From positions 14,771 through 78,770 of the forward strand of contig JBAYFZ010000002.1 in NCBI GenBank assembly GCA_041666915.1: a stretch of DNA of 64,000 nt, in the 5' to 3' direction. Made by a program: the position numbers and the translations under genes. This document shows positions 1-9,004 of this stretch, one piece after another. This stretch comes from Minisyncoccota bacterium (GTDB lineage Bacteria > Patescibacteriota > Minisyncoccia > Phycocordibacterales > PALSA-1337). How positions within the stretch are numbered: position 1 is the stretch's first letter; the number at the start of each line of letters is the position of its first letter. A model generated the notes under the pieces. The model did no database searches, was not told the origin of the DNA, and saw only the letters and a list, made by a program, of their open reading frames with translations.

Positions 1-1173
1 GTTACAACCCCTGCCCCCACCGTCTTACCTCCTTCACGAACGGCAAACCTCTGCTTGTCTTCTAGAGCGACTGGAGCAACGAGTTTGACTTTGAAAGTAA
101 TAGTATCTCCTGGCATAACCATCTCTACCTTCTCAGGAAGAGTTACTTCACCAGTGACGTCTGTTGTACGGATATAGAACTGAGGCTTGTATCCTGTGAA
201 GAATGGAGTGTGGCGACCACCTTCTTCTTTCTTCAAAACGTAAACTTCAGACTCAAATTCTGTATGAGGCTTGACTGAACCTGGCTTGGCCAAAACTTGT
301 CCACGAGAAACACCATCCTTGGCGGTTCCACGGAGAAGAAGACCTGCATTATCTCCTGCCATACCTTCTTTGAGAGATTTGTTGAACATTTCAATACCAG
401 TAATAACGGTCTTACTTGTATCTTTGAAACCAACAATCTCAACTTCTTCACCAACTTTGATCATTCCGCGCTCTATACGACCTGTAACCACAGTTCCACG
501 GCCTTCAATGGAGAAGATATCTTCAATTGGCATAAGGAAAGGCTTGTCTACTTCACGAACAGGAGTAGGAATATATGAATCCAAAGCGGCCATAAGTTCA
601 TCAATCTTTGTTGACCATGTAGCATCACCGTTCAAAGCGTTTGATGCAGAACCACGGATAACTGGAGTGTTTTTACCATCAAACTTATTTTTGGTGAGAA
701 GTTCACGCACTTCTTCTTCAACAAGGTCAATAAGATCTTGTTCTGGTACTAGGTCGCACTTGTTCAAGAATACAACGATCTTTGGAACACCAACTTGGTA
801 AGCCAAAAGAACGTGTTCACGTGTCTGTGGCATAACACCATCAGTAGCTGAAACAACGAGGATAGCACCGTCCATTTGAGCGGCACCTGTAATCATGTTC
901 TTGATAAAGTCGGCGTGTCCTGGACAGTCAATGTGAGCATAGTGACGAGTAGCTGACTCGTACTCAACGTGCGACAAAGAAATTGTAACTGTCTTTGTTG
1001 CATCACGAACTGTACCTCCCTTTGTAATATCTGCGTAAGCTTTGACGTTAGCTAGACCCTTTTTGGACTGAACTGCCAAAAGAGCGGCTGTCAAAGTAGA
1101 CTTGCCGTGGTCAATGTGGCCGATTGTACCGACATTGATGTGTGGCTTCGTACGATTGAATTCTGCTGCCATA
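1..1173 (-). CDS. tuf: elongation factor Tu; C-terminus cut by the window edge, N-terminal Met at 1171-1173
   Basis: Minus-strand translation gives [31 protein letters not shown]...[23 protein letters not shown], the classic EF-Tu G-domain. The two plus-strand ORFs 271..801 and 297..578 are antisense artefacts. Confidence 0.95.
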
Positions 1174-1322
1174 TGATTATTGATTTAGTGCTTTAGCTCG
1201 CATTGCATGGGCGTGTGCCATACAGCGAGAGCCAAAGATAAATTATTACTAGTTATTAAAACGCCCTAAGGCGCGTACCAAATAAGATAACATAATGGTG
1301 ATAATTTCGCAAATTCCAACAC

Positions 1323-1592
1323 CTATCCATACAACTGACTATGTGTCCCTATTTCTATAAAAATAGCGAAAAAACCTTCCATTTTATATACAGCCCTTAT
1401 GTTACCTGTAATATTTATACTTCTATGCCTTACCCACTTACCCTGAAGAGAATGGTTATTCAACAAATGGTGTTGCTGGTCTATTAAAAGCAAATTTCTC
1501 CTTTCAATAAAAGCTTTTTTAACCTCAATATTTTGCCTAGGATAGGATTTCTCAAAATTCTTATGCAAAATGAATCCAACAATTTTCTTCAT
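1323..1592 (-). CDS. putative RelE/ParE-family type II toxin
   Basis: 89 aa; the C-terminal KWVRHRSINITGNIRAVYKMEGFFAIFIEIGTHSQLY resembles the RelE/ParE C-terminal motif (YRIIYxxxxxVYILRIGHR). Lies immediately downstream of a RelB/DinJ-like ORF. A hairpin followed by a T-run lies downstream at about 1265-1285 on the minus strand. Confidence 0.5.
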   Translation of the reverse strand: MKKIVGFILHKNFEKSYPRQNIEVKKAFIERRNLLLIDQQHHLLNNHSLQGKWVRHRSINITGNIRAVYKMEGFFAIFIEIGTHSQLYG

Positions 1593-1618
1593 GAGAATAA
1601 TGATGGATTCTTAATAAT

Positions 1619-1894
1619 CTATAAATTAGCCAAATAGCGATCCATTTTGTCCATATCAGTAAAAAGTGGTGAGAGGTTTTTACCATTTTTCAAATCTTTT
1701 TCTGATTGTTTGATGATTTTCTGTAGATTTTTAGAAGGTTTTGAAGGAACGTTGAAAGTTACACTTTGATCAGCGATAAATTTCTTCAAGAAAGCGTTTA
1801 CAACCGTACTCAAGGGCAGACCCATTAGTCCAGCTATCTTCACAGCCTCTTCCTTGACCTCTTTATCAGCTTTTATATTTATAACCGTTTTCAT
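1619..1894 (-). CDS. RelB/DinJ-family antitoxin (ribbon-helix-helix)
   Basis: 91 aa; VKEEAVKIAGLMGLPLSTVVNAFLKKFIADQSVTF resembles the DinJ/RelB N-terminal RHH. Positioned 5' of the toxin-like ORF with a 27-nt gap. Confidence 0.6.
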   Translation of the reverse strand: MKTVINIKADKEVKEEAVKIAGLMGLPLSTVVNAFLKKFIADQSVTFNVPSKPSKNLQKIIKQSEKDLKNGKNLSPLFTDMDKMDRYLANL

Positions 1895-1930
1895 ATCTAA
1901 AGTATATACAACGGTTAGAGATAGTCAATA

Positions 1931-4075
1931 CTATTTCCTCTTCTCCTTGATCTCCTCAGCAACATTGGCTGGTACAACATCATAGTGATCAAATTCCATC
2001 ATTGCACTACCTTGTCCAGAAGTCATAGAACGGAGTTGGGTGGTATAACCGAACATTTCTGAAAGTGGAACTTTGGCATGAATGGCCAATGCTTGACCCT
2101 TTGGCTCAGAACCTTCAATAGTACCGCGCTTGGAAGCGATAGAACCGTTGATGTCTCCCATGTATTTTTCTGGGGCAACAACTTCAAGTCTCATAATAGG
2201 TTCTAGAATAACAGGCTTGGCTCTCTTGGCAGCATCTTGGAAAGCTTGAGAAGCGGCGATTTTGTAAGCAATTTCTGATGAGTCCACATCGTGATATGAA
2301 CCGAATGTTAATTCACAAGAGACGTTGACCATCTTGTAACCAGCCAAAATACCGCGATCCATAGCTTCATGGACACCCTTTTCTACTGCTGGAATGAACT
2401 CATTTGGAATAACACCTCCCTTGATAGAGTTGATAAATTCAAAATCATCATAACGATGAACAGTCTTTGGAATTTTCTCCCCTTCTGGCCATGGTTCCAT
2501 AGGTTTCAAAGTTAGACGGACGTGTCCATATTGACCCTTACCTCCAGTCTGCTTGATATATTTGTTTTCAGCTTCTGCAGTGTTCAAGATTGTCTCTCTG
2601 TAAGCTACTTGAGGCTCACCGACATTGGCTTCAACACTAAATTCACGCTTCATACGGTCAACCATGATTTCCAAATGCAATTCACCCATTCCTGAAATAA
2701 TAGTTTCGCCAGTTTCCTGATTTGAAGAAACTCTAAAAGTAGGGTCTTCGTTACCAAGTTTACGTAATGCCATACCCATCTTTTCTTGGTCAGCTTTGGT
2801 CTTTGGTTCAATACGTAGAGAAACCACAGGTTCCATGAATTTGATAACTTCAAGAACAATAGGATTGTTTTCGTCGCAGAAAGTATGAGATGTCAAAGCA
2901 TCTTTGAGACCTACAGCTGCAGCAATCTCACCCGCAAAGACTTTCTTTACTTCTTCACGCTGATCGGCTTGCAAGCGAACGATACGACCGAGGCGTTCTT
3001 TTTTACCAGTTGTAGAGTTGTAAATATAAGTACCGGACTCAATAGTTCCTGAATAGACACGGAAGAATGTAAGCTGACCAACGAAAGGATCGTTCTGGAG
3101 TTTGAAAGCTAGAGCTGAGAAAGGTTCACTATCATCTGCATGACGGAAAATCTCCCCTCCTGTATTAGGATCTATACCCTTTATAGAAGGAATATCCAAA
3201 GGTGATGGTAGATAATCAACAACAGCATCTAGAACTAGTTGAACACCGACGTTCTTCAAAGCTGAGCCAGTAAATACTGGGAAAATCTTATTGGCGATGA
3301 CAGCAATACGTGTAATCCTCTTCAATTCATCAATAGAAATCTCTTTTCCTTCAAGATACTGTTGCATAGCAGTATCATCATTCTCAACAATCTTTTCAAT
3401 CATTTCTGCACGATATTTCTTTGCATCTTCTAGCATATCTGCAGGAATTTCCTTTTCAATAATATCAATACCTTTTTCTCCTTCAAAATAGAAAGCCTTC
3501 ATACGCATAAGGTCAACGACTCCGTTATGTTCTCCTTCTAGACCGATAGGAAGTTGGAAACGGATAGCGTGTTTATTCAATCTTTCTACAATAGACTTGA
3601 AAGACCTTTCAAATGAAGCACCCATACGGTCCATCTTATTGATGAAACAAAGACGAGGAACTTTTCCATCGTCAGCGTAACGCCAGTTTGTTTCAGATTG
3701 TGGTTCTACTCCAGCCACTCCGTCAAAGACAACAACAGCGCCATCTAGTACGCGTAGAGAACGCTTTACTTCTACAGTAAAGTCAATGTGTCCTGGTGTA
3801 TCAATAACGTTGAAACGAACCTTCTTGGAAAGATCCGTCTTTGGCATGTATGTAGGATTCCAAAAACAAGTGATGGCAGCCGCTGTAATAGTAATACCGC
3901 GCTCCCTTTCTTGTTCCATCCAGTCTGTGGTTGTCTCACCATCGTGAACTTCACCGATCTTGTGGATCATTCCCGTGTAATACAAGATACGTTCTGAAGT
4001 CGTGGTCTTACCGGCATCAATGTGAGCAATGATACCGAAGTTGCGCATACGCTCAAGAGGATAGTCGCGGTTCAT
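1931..4075 (-). CDS. fusA: elongation factor G
   Basis: 714 aa; AHIDAGKTTTSERIL, DTPGHIDF, NKMDR G-domain motifs with full-length EF-G architecture. Confidence 0.97.
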   Translation of the reverse strand: MNRDYPLERMRNFGIIAHIDAGKTTTSERILYYTGMIHKIGEVHDGETTTDWMEQERERGITITAAAITCFWNPTYMPKTDLSKKVRFNVIDTPGHIDFTVEVKRSLRVLDGAVVVFDGVAGVEPQSETNWRYADDGKVPRLCFINKMDRMGASFERSFKSIVERLNKHAIRFQLPIGLEGEHNGVVDLMRMKAFYFEGEKGIDIIEKEIPADMLEDAKKYRAEMIEKIVENDDTAMQQYLEGKEISIDELKRITRIAVIANKIFPVFTGSALKNVGVQLVLDAVVDYLPSPLDIPSIKGIDPNTGGEIFRHADDSEPFSALAFKLQNDPFVGQLTFFRVYSGTIESGTYIYNSTTGKKERLGRIVRLQADQREEVKKVFAGEIAAAVGLKDALTSHTFCDENNPIVLEVIKFMEPVVSLRIEPKTKADQEKMGMALRKLGNEDPTFRVSSNQETGETIISGMGELHLEIMVDRMKREFSVEANVGEPQVAYRETILNTAEAENKYIKQTGGKGQYGHVRLTLKPMEPWPEGEKIPKTVHRYDDFEFINSIKGGVIPNEFIPAVEKGVHEAMDRGILAGYKMVNVSCELTFGSYHDVDSSEIAYKIAASQAFQDAAKRAKPVILEPIMRLEVVAPEKYMGDINGSIASKRGTIEGSEPKGQALAIHAKVPLSEMFGYTTQLRSMTSGQGSAMMEFDHYDVVPANVAEEIKEKRK

Positions 4076-4183
4076 AAAGGTTTGGGCTTATAAATAAATA
4101 ATAATCTATGGTAAACAAAAAAGCAGGAACTGCTTATTGCCCCATACAATACAGTAAACGGGAGAAATAATCAACGCTTAAAG

Positions 4184-4966
4184 CTATATCATCCCAAGTA
4201 AAGTATCCTTCCAACCCTTCTTCTCTGGTGTACTCAAAAAGAACTCCGATGGACAAGTCGTTTTTGGATTGATTTCTCTATGACCAAAGATTCTATCTTT
4301 TGAGACATTAGAGTATTTCTTACGGATCAATCCTGCGATAGCTTCAAGCTCAATCTGGCTTGGTACACCATTTTCATGATCATCATCCAAACAAATAGCC
4401 GTACTTCTACAGTTGATATCCCAATTCCCCGCTTGCCAACCTATCTCATCATCATTCAACAACCTCTCGCACTTTCCATCTTTACGAACAATCCAATGAT
4501 ATGGCCAAAAAACTTGTAAACCATTTCTAAAATGTCCTGAATAAATAAAATTATCTTTTATTTCTTTGTTAGCATCATAAGTAGGACCTTTCCCTGCATA
4601 CTGTGGAGCATATAGACGAACAAGTTCTATAGCTGACAAACGTTCTTTGGTCAAACCAGGGAAAGAACTCGTATGATGAATAATTATAGTATCAATAGGT
4701 TTTCTTTCTTCATCAAAATTCTTACCTTCTTTACCCAAGGCCACATTTCCAAGTATCAACTGCTCCTCAAAGAAATCGTACACTCTTTCTTTTTGCTTTT
4801 CGTAAGCGGGACGATCCATATCATGTAAACGACTCAAATCCTTCAAGACTTGAGGAATCTCTTTATACCAGTGAGGATTCTTTATCTTTATTTTCCATTC
4901 AGAAATGTTGAAGGTGAACATAACTAAGATAAATAAGCATTTTCCCAACAACTGTAACATACCCAA
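4184..4966 (-). CDS. N-acetylmuramoyl-L-alanine amidase (Amidase_2/PGRP-like) with N-terminal signal anchor
   Basis: DTIIIHHTSS...GWQAGNWDINCRSTAICL...GHREINPKTTCP matches the amidase_2 zinc-amidase signature. Hydrophobic N-terminus. Confidence 0.75.
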   Translation of the reverse strand: MGMLQLLGKCLFILVMFTFNISEWKIKIKNPHWYKEIPQVLKDLSRLHDMDRPAYEKQKERVYDFFEEQLILGNVALGKEGKNFDEERKPIDTIIIHHTSSFPGLTKERLSAIELVRLYAPQYAGKGPTYDANKEIKDNFIYSGHFRNGLQVFWPYHWIVRKDGKCERLLNDDEIGWQAGNWDINCRSTAICLDDDHENGVPSQIELEAIAGLIRKKYSNVSKDRIFGHREINPKTTCPSEFFLSTPEKKGWKDTLLGMI

Positions 4967-5131
4967 CCAAATTTATCTTGGATTGTAACCGGAGTAAGAC
5001 CAAAATAATGCGCACCATACCAAGCCCCGTCACTTGATATTGTGACAAAAATCAAGCTGTGACATTCCACACAAAAAACGATTGCCCGTTGTTTCTGTGT
5101 AAGAATTATTGATTCTTGGATTGTATTCATA

Positions 5132-5380
5132 TTATTTTTTGTAATGATTTGTAATCTGAAAAACTTCAATCACGTCCCCTTTCACGAAAAATAAGGCTCT
5201 GTATTTACGATCAACCCTAAACGAGTAAATTCCATGCCATTTCGGTTCCAGTAATTCTGTGTTTAAAGAAGGATGTTTAATATTCGAAACAAGCAACACG
5301 GTAATCTTTTTCCACTTTGAAGTCAGCTTATGTATTGCCAAATATTCCAATAAATCTGAACGAAGAGGTAAAATCTTCAT
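5132..5380 (-). CDS. putative RelE/ParE-like toxin (second pair)
   Basis: 82 aa; KWHGIYSFRVDRKYRALFFVKGDVIEVFQITNHY resembles the RelE/ParE C-terminal signature. Preceded by a small ORF 11 nt upstream. Confidence 0.45.
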   Translation of the reverse strand: MKILPLRSDLLEYLAIHKLTSKWKKITVLLVSNIKHPSLNTELLEPKWHGIYSFRVDRKYRALFFVKGDVIEVFQITNHYKK

Positions 5381-5391
5381 AGATCAGATAT

Positions 5392-5601
5392 TTACTTTGA
5401 ATAAGAAGATTTTTGGAGACCGCTTTCTAGGTCGGAAATGAATTCTTTTGTATAGAGTTTTGAAGCACGAAAATCTTCGACAATATTCTTGACTGGATCT
5501 TTTATAAGCAATTCAAGTAAGCGTGTAGCCACATTACGATAGGCTTTTGACTCCTTCTTCAGCTTGCTATATTCAGTTTTTGAGATAGTAATTCGATTCA
5601 T
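5392..5601 (-). CDS. putative antitoxin partner of the 5132..5380 toxin
   Basis: 69-aa ORF immediately upstream of the toxin-like gene on the same strand. No strong family signature seen. Confidence 0.35.
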   Translation of the reverse strand: MNRITISKTEYSKLKKESKAYRNVATRLLELLIKDPVKNIVEDFRASKLYTKEFISDLESGLQKSSYSK

Positions 5602-5616
5602 AGAATAATGATAGCA

Positions 5617-5660
5617 AACAAAAACATCCAGTCAATATTGACCGGATGTTTTTGTTATTT
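5617..5660. terminator. bidirectional hairpin terminator between the TA pair and rpsG
   Basis: catccagtcaatattgaccggatg hairpin flanked by an A-run on the left and a T-run on the right. Confidence 0.5.
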
Positions 5661-5685: not shown

Positions 5686-6156
5686 TTACCAAGCAAAGTG
5701 AGCAAAAGCTTTGTTAGCTTCGGCCATCTTGTGAACGTTTTCACGCTTTTTGACAGCTTCACCTTCATTCTTGGAAGCAGAGATGATCTCATCGGCCAAC
5801 TTCAAATGAATAGGAGCACCTTTCTTGGAACGAGCAGCTTCAATGATCCATTTCATTGAAAGAGCCATCTTACGTTCTGGGCGAACTTCGCGAGGAACCT
5901 GATAGTTGGCACCACCGACTCGGCGAGAACGAACTTCCATAGCTGGAGAAGTATTCTTGAGAGCAGCTTCAAAGACCTCTAGAGGATTTTCAACTTTGGC
6001 TTTCTCTTTGATAGCAGTCATACAATCAGCAACAATGCCTCGGGCAATGTTTTTCTTTCCTGATTCCATAACGTAGTTGGTAAATTTGGACAATTTCAAA
6101 GAAGCATAATTCGCATCAGGCTTCAATTCACGTTTTATATTGAGTTTACGTCGCAT
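5686..6156 (-). CDS. rpsG: 30S ribosomal protein S7
   Basis: 156 aa; [14 protein letters not shown]...[22 protein letters not shown] is the S7 signature. Confidence 0.97.
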
Positions 6157-6216: not shown

Positions 6217-6636
6217 TTAAACCTTAGCTGCTTTTGGTCTTTTATTACCATATTGGCTACGACCTTTTCTTCGAGCTTCTACACCTGCACAGTCTAGAAC
6301 ACCTCGGACTACAGAATAACGCAAACCTACATCCTTTACGCGACCTCCCTTTAGAAGAACCACTGCGTGTTCCTGCAAGTTATGACCCATTCCTGGGATA
6401 TAAGCAGTAACTTCAAGACCATTAGTAAGACGTACGCGGGCAATCTTACGAATAGCTGAGTTAGGCTTCTTCGGAGTCTTGGTAGTAACTTTCACGCAAA
6501 CACCTCTCTTGAAAGGAGCTGGGAAGAAACTTGGTCGGTTCTTGATCGTATTGAAAGTACGAGTCAAAGCGACAGATTTTGATTTCTGCTTGAAACGCTT
6601 CCTTGACGACTTGGTCAACTGATTTATTGTTGGCAT
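6217..6636 (-). CDS. rpsL: 30S ribosomal protein S12
   Basis: 139 aa; MPTINQL...[52 protein letters not shown] is the S12 signature. Confidence 0.97.
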
Positions 6637-6842: not shown

Positions 6843-7892
6843 TTACAGCAATGATTTTATGGATTCAGCGTTTAAGGTGTAGGCTCGAACAAAAGAATCG
6901 TCCACATGAGCATATAAAATTCCTTCACCTAGTTTTGTCTCTACGAACTGACTAGCAAACGTAATAGTTACCGCTTCAGTATCTTGGATAAACGGCTCAG
7001 GGGAAACCCAATCAATTTTTCCATTTTCGTAATCATAAATAAATAACCCCACTGAGAACATTCCGTATTTTATTTTGTCGCCCATTTTTTGGTTAGCTTC
7101 TCGTCCGTTCATTATACCCAATAACTTTCCTTCACCGACATCAATAAAGTTCTTTGGCAACAAAGGTCCAGGTGAGGCGTGGCCACCAATCCAAGCAATA
7201 TTATGTTCTTTAGGATGAAATACTGTCTCTCCATACCTCCACAGTTTGCTCATATCTTCTGCAATAGCAACTTTAACAATAGAATAAGTTGTATCAGTCT
7301 GACGATCTCGAGATTCAATAAGGTTATACCTGAAACCTTTAGAGTTAAGCGGAGCTATAGAAACTTCCTTTGCACTTAATTGTACTGTGTCCATAAGTAC
7401 AGGCATTGTCATTTCTAGAGAATCTAAATCTTTTCCAACAGCATGCCCAAGATGTATCTTCATTTTTTCTCCTTCATCATTCATCTTTTTTGATGGCCCT
7501 ATTGGAATTGTGAAATACAGATGTATTAAACCAGTAGTTTCATCTATCCAAATATCTGGATCCTCCAATCCAATAAAATCCCAGTCTTTAGGAGTCAAAC
7601 TGTCTATAATTTCTTTTTCGTTTCTAATTATTATACGATCACCAATTTCAAAATACTCCAGCGAATTTCCTCGTATTGTATGTAATTCACTTCTATCAAT
7701 ATATCCTTTTACCGTTACATCTCCCTCTCTACTTGTAATACATCTAATTATCCCTTCCTTATATTGAACTCTTGGGTCAAGAGCAATCGCCATAACGTGC
7801 GTAAACTTTTTATCTGTATTTATTACTCTACCCTCATGCTGAACATATAATTTTGACATAGATTTATTACTATAATTCTTTTTAATATTCAT
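6843..7892 (-). CDS. hypothetical protein, possible beta-propeller glycosidase-like (GH43/GH130-like); function uncertain
   Basis: 349-aa uninterrupted ORF; GLEDPDIWID resembles the EDPR-type motif of five-bladed propeller glycosidases. Weak evidence. Confidence 0.3.
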   Translation of the reverse strand: MNIKKNYSNKSMSKLYVQHEGRVINTDKKFTHVMAIALDPRVQYKEGIIRCITSREGDVTVKGYIDRSELHTIRGNSLEYFEIGDRIIIRNEKEIIDSLTPKDWDFIGLEDPDIWIDETTGLIHLYFTIPIGPSKKMNDEGEKMKIHLGHAVGKDLDSLEMTMPVLMDTVQLSAKEVSIAPLNSKGFRYNLIESRDRQTDTTYSIVKVAIAEDMSKLWRYGETVFHPKEHNIAWIGGHASPGPLLPKNFIDVGEGKLLGIMNGREANQKMGDKIKYGMFSVGLFIYDYENGKIDWVSPEPFIQDTEAVTITFASQFVETKLGEGILYAHVDDSFVRAYTLNAESIKSLL

Positions 7893-7920: not shown

Positions 7921-8529
7921 TCAAAGTCCCACACCAGTAATCAGCTTAAAAGCCCAAGGGATTATCGGAGAAACAAATCTCCAGAGAAAGAAAACGACAA
8001 TGAGGACAAAAATAGGGGCATAGGTCTCCATCATCATCCTTATTTGTCCATATTGATTTGGTAACCAAGCGAACAATAACTTTGAACCATCTAATGGTGG
8101 TAAAGGAATAAGATTGAATATTGCTAAAACCAAGTTGATAATGACTATATATGAACAAATCTCTATAAAAGGAGCGCTAAAAGTTGCTCCACTGATTGCA
8201 AAACGAATGATCGTACCGAATACAAGAGCTAATAAGAGATTGGAAATAGGGCCAGCAATAGCAATGAGGAATTCCCCTTGTCTCTTATTCTTTAAATTAT
8301 AAGGGTTGTACTCTACAGGTTTTGCCCAGCCGAAAGTGAAACCCGACAGAGATGTGATGAGTGGAAAAAGAATAGAACCAACAGGATCTATATGTTTCAA
8401 AGGATTCAAAGTCAATCTTCCCTGCAATCTAGGGGTAGGATCACCCAACCTATCAGCCATAAAACCGTGAGAGATCTCGTGGATAATGATTGAGAAGATT
8501 AAAATGATTATGGAGAGAATTGTTAACAT
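7921..8529 (-). CDS. site-2 protease family (M50) zinc metalloprotease
   Basis: HEISH zinc motif in the first TM helix, multiple TM segments, NLIPLPPLDG motif. Confidence 0.8.
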   Translation of the reverse strand: MLTILSIIILIFSIIIHEISHGFMADRLGDPTPRLQGRLTLNPLKHIDPVGSILFPLITSLSGFTFGWAKPVEYNPYNLKNKRQGEFLIAIAGPISNLLLALVFGTIIRFAISGATFSAPFIEICSYIVIINLVLAIFNLIPLPPLDGSKLLFAWLPNQYGQIRMMMETYAPIFVLIVVFFLWRFVSPIIPWAFKLITGVGL

Positions 8530-8823: not shown

Positions 8824-9004
8824 GACAGTTGATTAATCTTGATAGTATTTATTAGATTTGATATGCTTCTATTAGAAGTATGCAATAATAACTTATGAGG
8901 CGCTTTGGTGTTCCCTTAGAATATCTAGGGCTTGAGCTAAAGATAACCACCTTGTGAGACGCTACTTCTAACAAAGAACCCGCTAAGGCGGATTTTTTGT
9001 TAGA

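What the first reader, a model, noticed from the sequence alone, without database searches (positions are those of the whole stretch)
1323..5601. Two toxin–antitoxin-like pairs and a peptidoglycan amidase inserted into the str operon
The universally conserved rpsL-rpsG-fusA-tuf operon is intact in order, but with insertions.

- A small ORF plus RelE-like toxin pair and an amidase_2 cell-wall hydrolase lie between rpsG and fusA.
- A RelB/DinJ antitoxin plus RelE/ParE-like toxin pair lies between fusA and tuf, with its own terminator.

The RelE/ParE signatures are weak in both toxins; the RelB/DinJ match is stronger. TA modules embedded inside this operon are unusual.
Basis: partly seen in the sequence, partly recalled or inferred. 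Interest (0 to 1): 0.6.

Follow-up and report, generated by a model that had tools for sequence, protein, structure and literature searches.

The report
Toxin–antitoxin cargo flanking fusA in Patescibacteria
In this small-genome groundwater-type bacterium, two ordinary-looking toxin–antitoxin gene pairs and a cell-wall amidase sit in the two gaps on either side of the elongation-factor G gene, and related genomes often carry other accessory genes, most recognisably toxin–antitoxin genes, in those same two gaps.

Summary
All genes lie on the minus strand in this order: rpsL, rpsG, [69-aa ORF, 82-aa toxin-like ORF, 68-aa CxxC…CxxC ORF, Amidase_2], fusA, [RelB/DinJ-like, YafQ-like], tuf.

- **Pair 2** is a DinJ–YafQ-type module. 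Its HMM scores sit at or just under the curated cut-offs, and its best solved-structure matches are DinJ and YafQ/HP0894.
- **Pair 1 toxin** belongs to a large, tightly conserved YoeB-like family with 972 homologues. Its predicted fold matches YoeB (TM about 0.7) and the YoeB catalytic residues are conserved.
- **Pair 1 partner** belongs to a family absent from Pfam. It always precedes this toxin, in at least five unrelated genomic contexts, and both genes are under purifying selection.

The organism is a Patescibacteria (Paceibacteria-type) bacterium. In 80 related loci, the rpsG–fusA gap is at least 300 bp in 26 of 65 and the fusA–tuf gap in 44 of 50. The rpsL–rpsG gap never reaches 300 bp (0 of 61). 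Gap cargo is diverse, and TA families are the commonest recognised class (about 17 of 87 small ORFs against 5 of 150 in flanks).

These are ordinary type II TA modules sitting in a lineage-wide insertion hot spot. Toxicity was not tested. Interest is modest.

The parts
6217..6636 (-). rpsL (ribosomal protein S12), first gene of the str cluster
   Evidence: PF00164, 2.4e-31.
5686..6156 (-). rpsG (ribosomal protein S7)
   Evidence: PF00177, 2.7e-53.
5617..5656 (-). 20+20-nt palindrome followed by a U-run. Predicted intrinsic terminator of rpsL-rpsG. It overlaps the -35 of the pair-1 promoter and may also serve as an operator.
   Evidence: RNA fold gives an 18-bp stem, -26.7 kcal/mol, z = -5.5. 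Inverted repeat I1. Conserved in L097; the core GTCAATATTGAC is conserved in L098.
5608..5635 (-). Promoter-like site TTGACT-16-TATCAT with an extended TG. The -10 ends 6 nt before the AT1 ATG, so the mRNA may be leaderless.
   Evidence: Consensus scan, 10 of 12 matches. Function is inferred.
5392..5601 (-). AT1: 69-aa putative antitoxin of an uncurated family with a conserved C-terminal motif VEDFR..LY..EF..DL..GL.KSSY
   Evidence: - No Pfam, NCBIfam or PADLOC hit.
- 12 close homologues and 166 distant clusters; none of 150 members has a Pfam family.
- Always followed by a T1 homologue.
- Against L097, 21 synonymous and 3 nonsynonymous codon changes.
- Three-helix model, pLDDT 81, with no fold match.
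5132..5380 (-). T1: 82-aa YoeB-like toxin of the RelE/ParE superfamily
   Evidence: - Weak YoeB, HigB, ParE_like and RelE HMM hits; PHROG RelE-like toxin.
- 972 homologues, some named YoeB family by their sources.
- The family profile hits only YoeB structures.
- AlphaFold2 model, pLDDT 87, matches YoeB, YafQ and RelE at TM 0.69-0.73.
- E42, R55 and H79 are invariant; R61 and Y80 nearly so.
4924..5130 (-). 68-aa CxxC…CxxC (zinc-ribbon-like) ORF. Lineage-restricted, function unknown. Its end overlaps the amidase start by 37 nt.
   Evidence: - Called as a gene in L081 and L082.
- Only two homologues among 5.8 billion proteins.
- The core is conserved in L097 (77% identity), with 16 synonymous and 15 nonsynonymous codon changes. 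Only a remnant survives in L098.
4184..4960 (-). N-acetylmuramoyl-L-alanine amidase (Amidase_2, T7-lysozyme/AmpD/PGRP type) with a hydrophobic N-terminus
   Evidence: - PF01510, 2.2e-15, 57.6 bits against a cut-off of 26.
- PHROG amidase/endolysin families.
- BLASTP to T7 lysozyme aligns the equivalents of Y46, H122, K128 and C130 (the T7 sequence was recalled from memory).
- Replaced by multi-TM proteins in L097 and L098, and absent in L083.
4121..4135 (-). Terminator-like hairpin and T-run after the amidase, upstream of fusA
   Evidence: Terminator scan.
1931..4075 (-). fusA (elongation factor G), 714 aa, intact
   Evidence: ORF. 60-90% identity to EF-G in 80 Patescibacteria loci.
1901..1928 (-). 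Promoter-like site TTGACT-16-TATACT immediately after the fusA stop codon. The -10 ends 6 nt before the AT2 ATG.
   Evidence: Consensus scan, 10 of 12 matches. Function is inferred.
1619..1894 (-). AT2: 91-aa RelB/DinJ-family antitoxin
   Evidence: - PF04221, 26.5 bits against a cut-off of 22.4.
- TIGR02384, 7.6e-11.
- Best solved-structure matches are E. coli DinJ in the DinJ-YafQ complex, over residues 5-78.
1323..1592 (-). T2: 89-aa YafQ-like toxin of the RelE/ParE superfamily
   Evidence: - PF15738, 8.8e-7 (29.6 against 30).
- TIGR02385, 27.6 against 27.9.
- Solved-structure matches are HP0894 and E. coli YafQ.
- The equivalents of H50, H87 and F91 are kept (H47, H84, Y88). H63 and D67 are both Asn.
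1191..1274 (-). Weak hairpin plus UUU (about 1261-1274), followed by a long imperfect hairpin (1191-1237) just upstream of tuf
   Evidence: RNA fold; z is only -1.96 for the whole spacer. Role unknown.
3..1172 (-). tuf (EF-Tu). The first 390 codons are in the window and the 3' end runs off it.
   Evidence: Translation, and 63-84% identity to tuf in related loci.

Best explanation
The region holds the normal rpsL-rpsG-fusA-tuf cluster of a Patescibacteria (Paceibacteria-type) bacterium. Accessory cargo sits in the two gaps that flank fusA.

**Gap 1 (rpsG-fusA)**
- A two-gene type II toxin-antitoxin module. The antitoxin comes first (AT1, uncurated family). The toxin follows 11 nt later (T1, YoeB-like, presumably a ribosome-dependent mRNA endonuclease).
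- A small zinc-ribbon-like ORF.
- A probably membrane-anchored or secreted Amidase_2 peptidoglycan amidase.

**Gap 2 (fusA-tuf)**
- A DinJ-YafQ-type module (AT2 then T2).

**How it most likely works (inferred)**
- Each insert looks like its own transcription unit. A strong terminator closes rpsL-rpsG. A sigma-70-like promoter lies right in front of each antitoxin, and a terminator follows the amidase.
- Antitoxin and toxin would work as in other type II modules. The antitoxin binds and neutralises the toxin and represses its own promoter. When the antitoxin is lost, the toxin cleaves mRNA in the ribosomal A site.

**Why they are here**
- The two fusA-flanking gaps are a lineage-wide hot spot for accessory genes in this clade.
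- The likely mechanism is that the extremely conserved flanking genes serve as homology arms for recombination, and that co-oriented inserts are tolerated. This part is inferred.

**Shown:** gene identities, family and fold assignments, mobility of the AT1-T1 pair, purifying selection on it, and the hot-spot statistics.

**Not shown:** toxicity, neutralisation, autoregulation, transcription units and the recombination mechanism.
For: **Gene content and HMM assignments:**

**Pair 2**
- AT2 matches RelB above Pfam's cut-off, and matches DinJ from the DinJ-YafQ complex in the PDB.
- T2 matches YafQ and HP0894 with H50, H87 and F91 equivalents conserved.

**Pair 1**
- T1 has 972 homologues.
- Its profile hits only YoeB structures.
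- Its pLDDT-87 model matches YoeB at TM about 0.7.
- Catalytic-site equivalents are invariant.
- AT1 is always followed by T1 in at least five contexts:
  - the str operon;
  - a TA island containing PIN, DUF4258 and DUF2283 genes;
  - next to an ABC transporter;
  - directly downstream of tRNA-Trp;
  - a Bacteroidota contig.
- Both genes show mostly synonymous change against L097.

**Independent transcription signals:**

**Hot spot**
- The rpsG-fusA gap is at least 300 bp in 26 of 65 loci, the fusA-tuf gap in 44 of 50, and the rpsL-rpsG gap in 0 of 61.
- Cargo is diverse, with TA families on top: PhdYeFM x6, YafQ x3, RelB x2, ParE x2, HepT, MNT-type Polbeta x2 and DUF2283 x2.
- L040 carries a TA array in both gaps. 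L016 has a RelB-YafQ pair after fusA. L006 has a YafQ pair before fusA.
- About 17 of 87 small gap ORFs are TA-related, against 5 of 150 in flanking DNA (Fisher p = 8e-5).
- 111 of 145 gap ORFs are co-oriented with the operon.

**Cargo turnover among close relatives**
- L083 has AT1-T1 only.
- L097 and L098 carry membrane proteins in place of the amidase.
- L037 has an ORF6N protein.
- L081 diverges inside the 3' end of fusA and lacks AT2-T2.

**Elsewhere in the window**
Ten candidate small ORFs elsewhere in the window (of 21 small ORFs outside this region) gave no TA-family Pfam hit.
Against: - No functional data of any kind.
- Several curated cut-offs are missed:
  - T1 falls below the YoeB, HigB, ParE_like and RelE cut-offs.
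  - T2 is marginally below the YafQ and RelE_StbE cut-offs.
  - AT2 falls below TIGR02384.
- T2 has Asn at the positions of YafQ H63 and D67, so it may be attenuated or may use a different mechanism.
- AT1 has no recognisable DNA-binding fold and no structural match. Its antitoxin role rests on position and co-occurrence only.
- The T1 family is unusually well conserved for a toxin (60-87% identity across hundreds of clusters), which could hint at a housekeeping role.
- The TA count in gaps was taken from a family-level census, so the figure of 17 is approximate. The flank control includes the densely packed S10 operon, which inflates the contrast.
- Gap lengths come from tblastn alignment ends, not gene calls.
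- The L081 divergence could be a chimeric metagenome assembly rather than strain variation.
Confidence: 0.8

Rival explanations
1. The inserts are the decayed remnant of a prophage or other mobile element that integrated into the str cluster. On this reading the amidase is an endolysin, the zinc-ribbon ORF a lysis or regulatory accessory, and the TA pairs element-borne stabilisation or abortive-infection genes.
For: - The amidase matches PHROG lysis families (phrog_822, 9e-11, and several endolysin families) and T7 lysozyme.
- T1, T2 and AT2 match PHROG 'moron' RelE-like and unknown-function families.
- The closest relative, L037, has an ORF6N (KilA-N/antirepressor-type) protein in the same gap.
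- A reverse transcriptase occurs among the gap cargo of relatives.
Against: - No integrase, recombinase, capsid, terminase or holin gene was found.
- No flanking direct repeats.
- Only one weak (26%) amidase relative among 2.9 million viral contigs.
- The modules vary independently among relatives. AT1-T1 persists while the downstream gene changes. That pattern fits piecemeal cargo better than a single element.
- No PADLOC defence hit.
Confidence: 0.1
2. T1 and AT1, and possibly T2 and AT2, are domesticated translation regulators rather than selfish addiction modules. They would be kept next to fusA and tuf because their expression is coupled to that of the translation apparatus, for example for growth-rate or dormancy control in an episymbiont.
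For: - Both toxins belong to families that act in the ribosomal A site, the site used by EF-G and EF-Tu (established knowledge of YoeB and YafQ).
- AT1-T1 is retained at the same spot in several diverged relatives (T1 73-100% identical) under purifying selection, while neighbouring cargo turns over.
- The T1 family is strongly conserved.
- Inserts are mostly co-oriented with the operon.
- Both recognisable TA pairs found in the 64-kb window lie here.
Against: - The pair is absent from the str operon of all 80 representative relatives.
- It is found in unrelated contexts, including a TA island, a site downstream of a tRNA, and another phylum. This is typical of mobile modules.
- A strong terminator and the module's own promoters separate it from the operon.
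- The gaps also hold cargo unrelated to translation, such as pilins, a peptidase and nucleotide-metabolism genes.
Confidence: 0.08
3. The arrangement is an assembly or binning artefact, that is, chimeric joins at conserved genes in a metagenome.
For: - The source is evidently a metagenome-assembled Patescibacteria genome.
- L081 matches the window at 100%, then 98%, then not at all, switching inside fusA. This is the pattern a chimeric join would give.
Against: - The rpsG-AT1-T1-Zn68-amidase-fusA order is reproduced at 100% identity in two other samples.
- With sequence divergence, it recurs in L083, L084, L097 and L098.
- Reading frames are intact throughout.
- Only the fusA to AT2-T2 to tuf joins lack independent confirmation.
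Confidence: 0.03

Closest known systems
YefM-YoeB (Axe-Txe) type II toxin-antitoxin system
   Same: - T1 has the size of YoeB (82 aa).
- It has the predicted alpha-alpha-beta4 RelE/YoeB fold; the top Foldseek hits are S. aureus, S. pneumoniae, A. tumefaciens and E. coli YoeB.
- It ends in the C-terminal H-Y motif.
- It carries the equivalents of Glu46, Arg59, Arg65, His83 and Tyr84.
- The antitoxin gene comes first, separated by an 11-nt spacer.
   Different: - T1 scores below the YoeB cut-offs (21.1 against 27; 22.3 against 51.8).
- It forms its own tight subfamily.
- The partner is not a Phd/YefM protein. It is a roughly 70-aa helical protein of a family with no Pfam model.
DinJ-YafQ type II toxin-antitoxin system (E. 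coli; HP0894/HP0895 in H. pylori)
   Same: - AT2 aligns to DinJ over almost its whole length.
- T2 aligns to YafQ and HP0894 with H50, H87 and F91 equivalents kept.
- Gene order is antitoxin then toxin, with a 26-nt spacer.
   Different: - T2 has Asn at the H63 and D67 positions. The H63-to-Asn change is shared with the T2-like protein of L006.
- HMM scores are a fraction of a bit below the curated cut-offs.
Chromosomal integration hot spots flanked by conserved core genes (as described for bacterial pangenomes; TA and defence islands)
   Same: - Cargo varies between the same two conserved genes across related genomes.
- TA genes are over-represented in the cargo.
- Cargo turns over between close relatives.
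   Different: - The flanks are the str-cluster genes themselves. In most bacteria these are contiguous and co-transcribed; from general knowledge, the E. coli spacers are a few tens of bp.
- I found no paper describing this for Patescibacteria.
- PMC12455944 notes that predicted genomic islands of Patescibacteria often include tuf, rpsL and ribosomal protein genes.
T7 lysozyme / AmpD / PGRP family (Amidase_2) peptidoglycan amidases
   Same: - A full-length PF01510 match.
- The Tyr, His, Lys and Cys active-site and zinc-site residues are aligned.
   Different: - It has about 85 extra N-terminal residues, including a hydrophobic segment.
- There is no close solved relative by sequence.
- It is preceded by, and overlaps, an orphan zinc-ribbon ORF.

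Membership tests
Type II toxin-antitoxin module (generic) | Two small adjacent co-oriented genes, closely spaced, one encoding a toxin-fold protein | tested here: met
   - AT1/T1: 69 and 82 aa, 11-nt spacer.
- AT2/T2: 91 and 89 aa, 26-nt spacer.
- Toxin folds and families.
Type II toxin-antitoxin module (generic) | The toxin arrests growth, and the cognate antitoxin binds and neutralises it | not testable with these tools
   Needs expression and rescue assays. Co-occurrence of AT1 with T1 in every context is only indirect support.
Type II toxin-antitoxin module (generic) | Autoregulated promoter with an operator bound by the antitoxin or the complex | tested here: inconclusive
   - Promoter-like sites lie in front of both antitoxins.
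- A 20+20 palindrome overlaps the AT1 promoter.
- That palindrome doubles as the rpsG terminator, and it is not conserved in other contexts of the pair.
YoeB/Txe toxin family (PF06769, TIGR02116) | HMM score above the curated cut-off | tested here: not met
   - PF06769: 21.1 bits against 27.
- TIGR02116: 22.3 against 51.8.
YoeB/Txe toxin family (PF06769, TIGR02116) | RelE/YoeB microbial RNase fold | tested here: met
   The model has pLDDT 87. The top nine Foldseek PDB hits are YoeB-type toxins plus H. pylori HP0894, at TM 0.69-0.73 and probability 1.00.
YoeB/Txe toxin family (PF06769, TIGR02116) | Catalytic Glu46, Arg65, His83 and C-terminal Tyr84 (E. coli numbering, from established knowledge) | tested here: met
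   - E42 and H79 are invariant.
- R61 and Y80 are conserved in at least 90% of 35 family members.
- The alignment to S. pneumoniae YoeB places them in register.
YoeB/Txe toxin family (PF06769, TIGR02116) | Partner antitoxin of the Phd/YefM family | tested here: not met
   AT1 and 149 relatives have no PhdYeFM hit, nor any other consistent Pfam hit.
YafQ toxin family (PF15738) | HMM score above the curated cut-off | tested here: not met
   - PF15738: 29.6 bits against 30, short by 0.4 bit.
- TIGR02385 RelE_StbE: 27.6 against 27.9.
YafQ toxin family (PF15738) | Catalytic H50, H63, D67, H87 and F91 (E. coli numbering, from established knowledge) | tested here: inconclusive
   The equivalents of H50, H87 and F91 are kept (H47, H84, Y88). 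H63 and D67 are both Asn.
YafQ toxin family (PF15738) | Partner antitoxin of the DinJ/RelB family encoded upstream | tested here: met
   AT2 scores 26.5 on PF04221 against a cut-off of 22.4. Its best solved-structure match is DinJ.
RelB/DinJ antitoxin family (PF04221, TIGR02384) | HMM score above the curated cut-off | tested here: met
   The Pfam cut-off is met (26.5 against 22.4). The NCBIfam subfamily model falls just below its cut-off (42.1 against 45.65).
Amidase_2 (PF01510) N-acetylmuramoyl-L-alanine amidase | Domain match above the cut-off, and conserved zinc and catalytic residues | tested here: met
   - 57.6 bits against 26, covering model positions 2-130 of 131.
- The equivalents of Y46, H122, K128 and C130 align with T7 lysozyme.
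- The first zinc ligand (IIHHT motif) was seen by eye only.
str operon (rpsL-rpsG-fusA-tuf) | Conserved gene order and orientation | tested here: met
str operon (rpsL-rpsG-fusA-tuf) | Co-transcription of the four genes as one unit | not testable with these tools
   Predicted terminators after rpsG and after the amidase, and promoter-like sites, suggest the unit is split. Only transcript data can tell.

The most novel reading that the evidence does not exclude
In Paceibacteria, the two gaps flanking fusA may be a dedicated, clade-wide landing site where ribosome-targeting toxin-antitoxin modules are preferentially kept. Some, such as AT1-T1, which persists at this spot through speciation, may have been recruited to couple A-site mRNA cleavage to expression of the translation-factor genes. 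That would give these tiny episymbionts a built-in translation brake. A lesser version is that AT1 defines a new antitoxin family for YoeB-like toxins.
Probability: 0.1. Interest if true: 0.6.

Novelty: new member of a known kind. Interest (0 to 1): 0.35.

Why it matters
On its own the locus adds two more type II TA modules and one amidase to the catalogue, which is ordinary.

Three things are mildly useful:
- **A variable site inside a stable cluster.** One of the most conserved gene clusters in bacteria is routinely interrupted at two specific junctions in a major Patescibacteria lineage. The third junction, rpsL-rpsG, stays closed. This gives a well-defined variable site bracketed by universal marker genes. 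It is relevant to binning, to marker-gene phylogenies and to genomic-island predictors, which may flag tuf or rpsL as 'transferred' (compare PMC12455944).
- **TA modules in streamlined genomes.** It is direct evidence that streamlined CPR genomes do keep and exchange TA modules.
- **A testable toxin-partner pair.** A very large, tightly conserved YoeB-like toxin subfamily is paired with an antitoxin family that no curated database describes. This is an easy target for biochemical characterisation.

Tried and rejected
**Searches that gave nothing informative**
- PADLOC defence models gave no hit for any of the six inserted proteins.
- AT1 gave only chance helical matches (TFIIA and similar) in a sequence and profile search of the PDB and in Foldseek.
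- The zinc-ribbon ORF has only two homologues and no family.
- The amidase has no solved relative by sequence and one weak viral-contig relative.
- Searching for the exact EF-G protein returned nothing.
- There are no meaningful direct repeats or att-like sites around the inserts.
- Profiles of the T1 and AT1 families against the gap ORFs of 80 related loci gave no hits, so this particular pair is not a general str-operon resident.
- Literature searches found no description of TA modules in the str operon of CPR bacteria.

**An analysis I discarded**
- A phmmer-based enrichment test seeded with gap-derived TA queries was circular. I replaced it with a Pfam census of a random control set.

**Readings I considered and rejected**
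- Longer fusA matches reported for some loci suggested inteins or introns in fusA. They are cross-matches of the EF-G GTPase domain to the downstream tuf gene.
- An alternative genetic code is ruled out because fusA and the other genes are intact under table 11.

Full report
**1. What is there**

All relevant genes are on the minus strand. In order of transcription:

| Gene | Coordinates | Evidence or note |
|---|---|---|
| rpsL | 6217-6636 | |
| rpsG | 5686-6156 | |
| AT1, 69 aa | 5392-5601 | |
| T1, 82 aa | 5132-5380 | |
| Zn68, 68 aa, CxxC…CxxC | 4924-5130 | |
| Amidase_2 protein | 4184-4960 | |
| fusA | 1931-4075 | |
| AT2, 91 aa | 1619-1894 | |
| T2, 89 aa | 1323-1592 | |
| tuf | 1172 down to the window edge | |

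- The ribosomal genes and the amidase have strong Pfam matches.
- The G+C content drops from about 0.43-0.46 in the core genes to about 0.29-0.34 across both TA pairs.

**2. Transcription signals (consensus matches and folding only)**

- Directly after rpsG there is a 20+20-nt palindrome plus U-run. It folds into an 18-bp hairpin of -26.7 kcal/mol, z = -5.5 against shuffles.
- It overlaps a TTGACT-16-TATCAT promoter-like site. The -10 of that site ends 6 nt before the AT1 start codon.
- A hairpin with a T-run follows the amidase at 4121-4135.
- A TTGACT-16-TATACT site lies between the fusA stop and the AT2 start, again 6 nt before the ATG.
A longer imperfect hairpin sits just before tuf.
- I infer that the cluster is cut into several transcription units and that both antitoxin mRNAs may be leaderless. 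This needs transcript data.

**3. Pair 2 is a DinJ-YafQ-type module**

- AT2 passes the Pfam RelB cut-off (26.5 against 22.4) and scores 7.6e-11 on TIGR02384.
- Its only meaningful solved-structure matches are E. coli DinJ chains from DinJ-YafQ complexes, aligned over residues 5-78.
- T2 is 0.4 bit below the YafQ cut-off and 0.3 bit below RelE_StbE.
- T2 matches H. pylori HP0894 and E. coli YafQ in the PDB.
- In those alignments the equivalents of YafQ H50, H87 and F91 are kept (H47, H84, Y88). H63 and D67 are both Asn.
- The H63-to-Asn change is shared with the T2-like protein of L006. This is therefore a subfamily trait rather than decay, but activity could differ from that of YafQ.

**4. 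Pair 1 is a YoeB-like toxin with an uncurated partner**

Toxin T1:
- On its own, T1 gives only sub-threshold hits to YoeB, HigB, ParE_like and RelE and to a PHROG 'RelE-like toxin' family.
- It has 972 homologues at E no higher than 1e-3. Nearly all are 82-83 aa and 60-87% identical. Most come from Patescibacteria metagenomes, and a few are named 'YoeB family toxin' by NCBI or JGI.
- A profile of 35 members hits only YoeB chains in the PDB.
- An AlphaFold2 model (pLDDT 87, helix-helix-four strands) matches YoeB structures best (TM 0.69-0.73), followed by YafQ, RelK, HigB and ParE.
- E42, R55 and H79 are invariant, and R61 and Y80 are nearly so. They align with YoeB Glu46, Arg59, Arg65, His83 and Tyr84. 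The residue roles come from established knowledge of E. coli YoeB.

Partner AT1:
- AT1 has no hit in Pfam, NCBIfam or PADLOC.
- It has 12 close homologues. A profile search finds 166 clusters of 50%-identity representatives.
- Many of those match only the C-terminal half, which carries the motif VEDFR..LY..EF..DL..GL.KSSY.
- None of 150 members has a consistent Pfam family.
- Its model is three helices (pLDDT 81) with no fold match.

**5. AT1-T1 behaves as a mobile two-gene module**

Every AT1 homologue I could place is followed immediately by a T1 homologue, even where no gene had been called. The contexts differ:

| Locus | Context |
|---|---|
| Window, L081/L082, L097, L098, L083/L084 | Between rpsG and fusA |
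| L087 | TA island with PIN, DUF433/DUF5615 and DUF4258/DUF2283 genes |
| L091-L093 | In front of an ABC transporter |
| L094/L095 | 46 nt downstream of tRNA-Trp |
| L085 | Bacteroidota-type contig with T9SS-tailed proteins |

- Against L097, AT1 shows 21 synonymous and 3 nonsynonymous codon changes. T1 shows 22 and 5. Both genes are therefore under purifying selection.
- This pattern fits a TA module.

**6. Zn68 and the amidase**

- The amidase has a full-length Amidase_2 domain.
- It aligns with T7 lysozyme so that the Tyr46, His122, Lys128 and Cys130 equivalents match (the T7 sequence was recalled from memory).
- Read from the ATG at 4960, it begins with a hydrophobic segment (MLQLLGKCLFILVMFTF), which suggests export or membrane anchoring.
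- Zn68 overlaps its start by 37 nt. It has only two homologues in 5.8 billion proteins.
- Its core is conserved in L097, but with as many nonsynonymous as synonymous changes. It is a remnant in L098.
- In L097 and L098 the amidase is replaced by multi-TM proteins. In L083 nothing follows T1. The cargo downstream of AT1-T1 therefore turns over quickly.

**7. Organism and comparative picture**

- EF-G is 60-90% identical to proteins of Patescibacteria MAGs, labelled Taylor-, Zambryski-, Nomura- and Kaiserbacteria or Paceibacterota. The best is L037 at 90%.
- In the 80 related loci I located rpsL, rpsG, fusA and tuf by tblastn. Spacer lengths were:

| Spacer | Median | At least 300 bp |
|---|---|---|
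| rpsL-rpsG | 28 bp | 0 of 61 |
| rpsG-fusA | 156 bp | 26 of 65 (up to 4.9 kb) |
| fusA-tuf | 819 bp | 44 of 50 (up to 4.75 kb) |

- A Pfam census of 145 gap ORFs found 56 families.
- The commonest class is TA-related: PhdYeFM x6, YafQ x3, RelB x2, ParE x2, HepT, Polbeta/MNT x2 and DUF2283 x2.
- Other cargo includes PG_binding_1, pilin-like proteins, ORF6N, a reverse transcriptase, a subtilase and purine and pyrimidine enzymes.
- Examples:
  - L040 has RelB-YafQ, DUF2283 and ParE genes in a row between fusA and tuf, and MNT and DUF2283 genes between rpsG and fusA.
  - L016 has RelB-YafQ right after fusA.
  - L006 has a T2-like pair right before fusA.
- 111 of 145 gap ORFs run in the operon's direction.
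- As a control, I sampled 150 of 251 small ORFs from 408 kb flanking the cluster. Only 5 had TA-related hits, against about 17 of 87 small gap ORFs (Fisher p = 8e-5).
- That control has limits. The flanks include the packed S10 operon, and the gap count is read from a family-level table.
- Ten candidate small ORFs elsewhere in the window, of 21 small ORFs outside this region, gave no TA hit.

**8. Strain-level variation**

- L081 is 100% identical to the window from rpsG through 2.8 kb. It is then 98% identical, and then unrelated from the last codons of fusA onward, with no AT2-T2.
- This is either a recombination breakpoint inside fusA or a chimeric contig.
- The closest species-level relative, L037, has an ORF6N protein instead of AT1-T1.

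**9. Interpretation**

- These are two ordinary type II TA modules plus an amidase, sitting in two junctions that are open to accessory DNA throughout this lineage.
- The mechanism I favour for the hot spot is homologous recombination across the extremely conserved flanking genes, with co-oriented inserts tolerated. This is inferred, not shown.
- It agrees with a report that predicted genomic islands in Patescibacteria often include tuf, rpsL and ribosomal protein genes (PMC12455944).
- I found no paper describing TA modules inside the str cluster of CPR bacteria.

**10. Verdict**

- Novelty is low for the modules themselves. They are a new member of the DinJ-YafQ kind and a YoeB-like toxin with an uncurated antitoxin family.
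- The locus architecture is a modest, apparently undescribed regularity.
- Function is untested.

Noticed in passing
window 6843-7892 (-); L091 1639-2700, L092 1081-2142: A 349-aa ORF with no Pfam, NCBIfam or PDB match is wedged between the conserved M50-like protease gene and rpsL. Among all fetched loci its only homologues (62% identity) are in L091-L093, where they lie directly upstream of the AT1-T1 pair. This may be a chance effect of relatedness, or a link between this gene and the TA pair.
   Followed up: partly
window 8874-8969 (+): A DUF3800-V RNA (Rfam RF02964) matches at 76 bits, well above the gathering score of 37.4. It lies between an L28-like small ORF and the next gene.
   Followed up: no
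window 7921-8529 (-): A 202-aa HExxH membrane protein (site-2-protease/RseP-like, weak NCBIfam hits) is syntenic upstream of rpsL in about 55 of the related loci. The conserved block in this clade is therefore M50-like protease, rpsL, rpsG, fusA.
   Followed up: partly
window 1191-1237 (-): A long imperfect hairpin lies immediately upstream of the tuf start codon, without a U-tract. It could be a leader structure for tuf. Conservation in relatives was not examined.
   Followed up: no
window 5608-5613 and 1901-1906 (-): In both TA modules the -10-like hexamer ends 6 nt before the antitoxin ATG, with no Shine-Dalgarno sequence in between. A similar -10-to-ATG distance is seen upstream of AT1 homologues in L091 and L098. 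This suggests leaderless antitoxin mRNAs.
   Followed up: partly
window 5489-5503 (-): Inside the AT1 coding region there is a 15-nt copy (one mismatch) of one arm of the rpsG-terminator/AT1-promoter palindrome (ATCCAGTCAA core). It could be chance or a second operator half-site.
   Followed up: no
L081 3664-4189: A contig otherwise identical to the window switches to unrelated sequence inside the last codons of fusA. Downstream it carries a different ORF in place of AT2-T2. This is either strain-level cargo replacement or a chimeric assembly.
   Followed up: partly
L037 8143-14142: In the closest relative (EF-G 90% identical), fusA is followed by an fn3-repeat protein and two hypothetical proteins, then rpsH-rplF-rplR-rpsE. 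There is no tuf or S10-operon start within 6 kb. The cluster is rearranged there, or the contig is misjoined.
   Followed up: no
L083 5396-7541: fusA is split into two overlapping gene calls (542 and 189 aa) in this relative. This is probably a frameshift sequencing error, less probably a pseudogene. The M50-like gene upstream also appears frameshifted.
   Followed up: no
L094 2147-2218 and L095 2152-2223: An AT1-T1 pair sits 46 nt downstream of a tRNA-Trp gene, a classic integration position. The T1 gene there was not called by the source annotation.
   Followed up: partly
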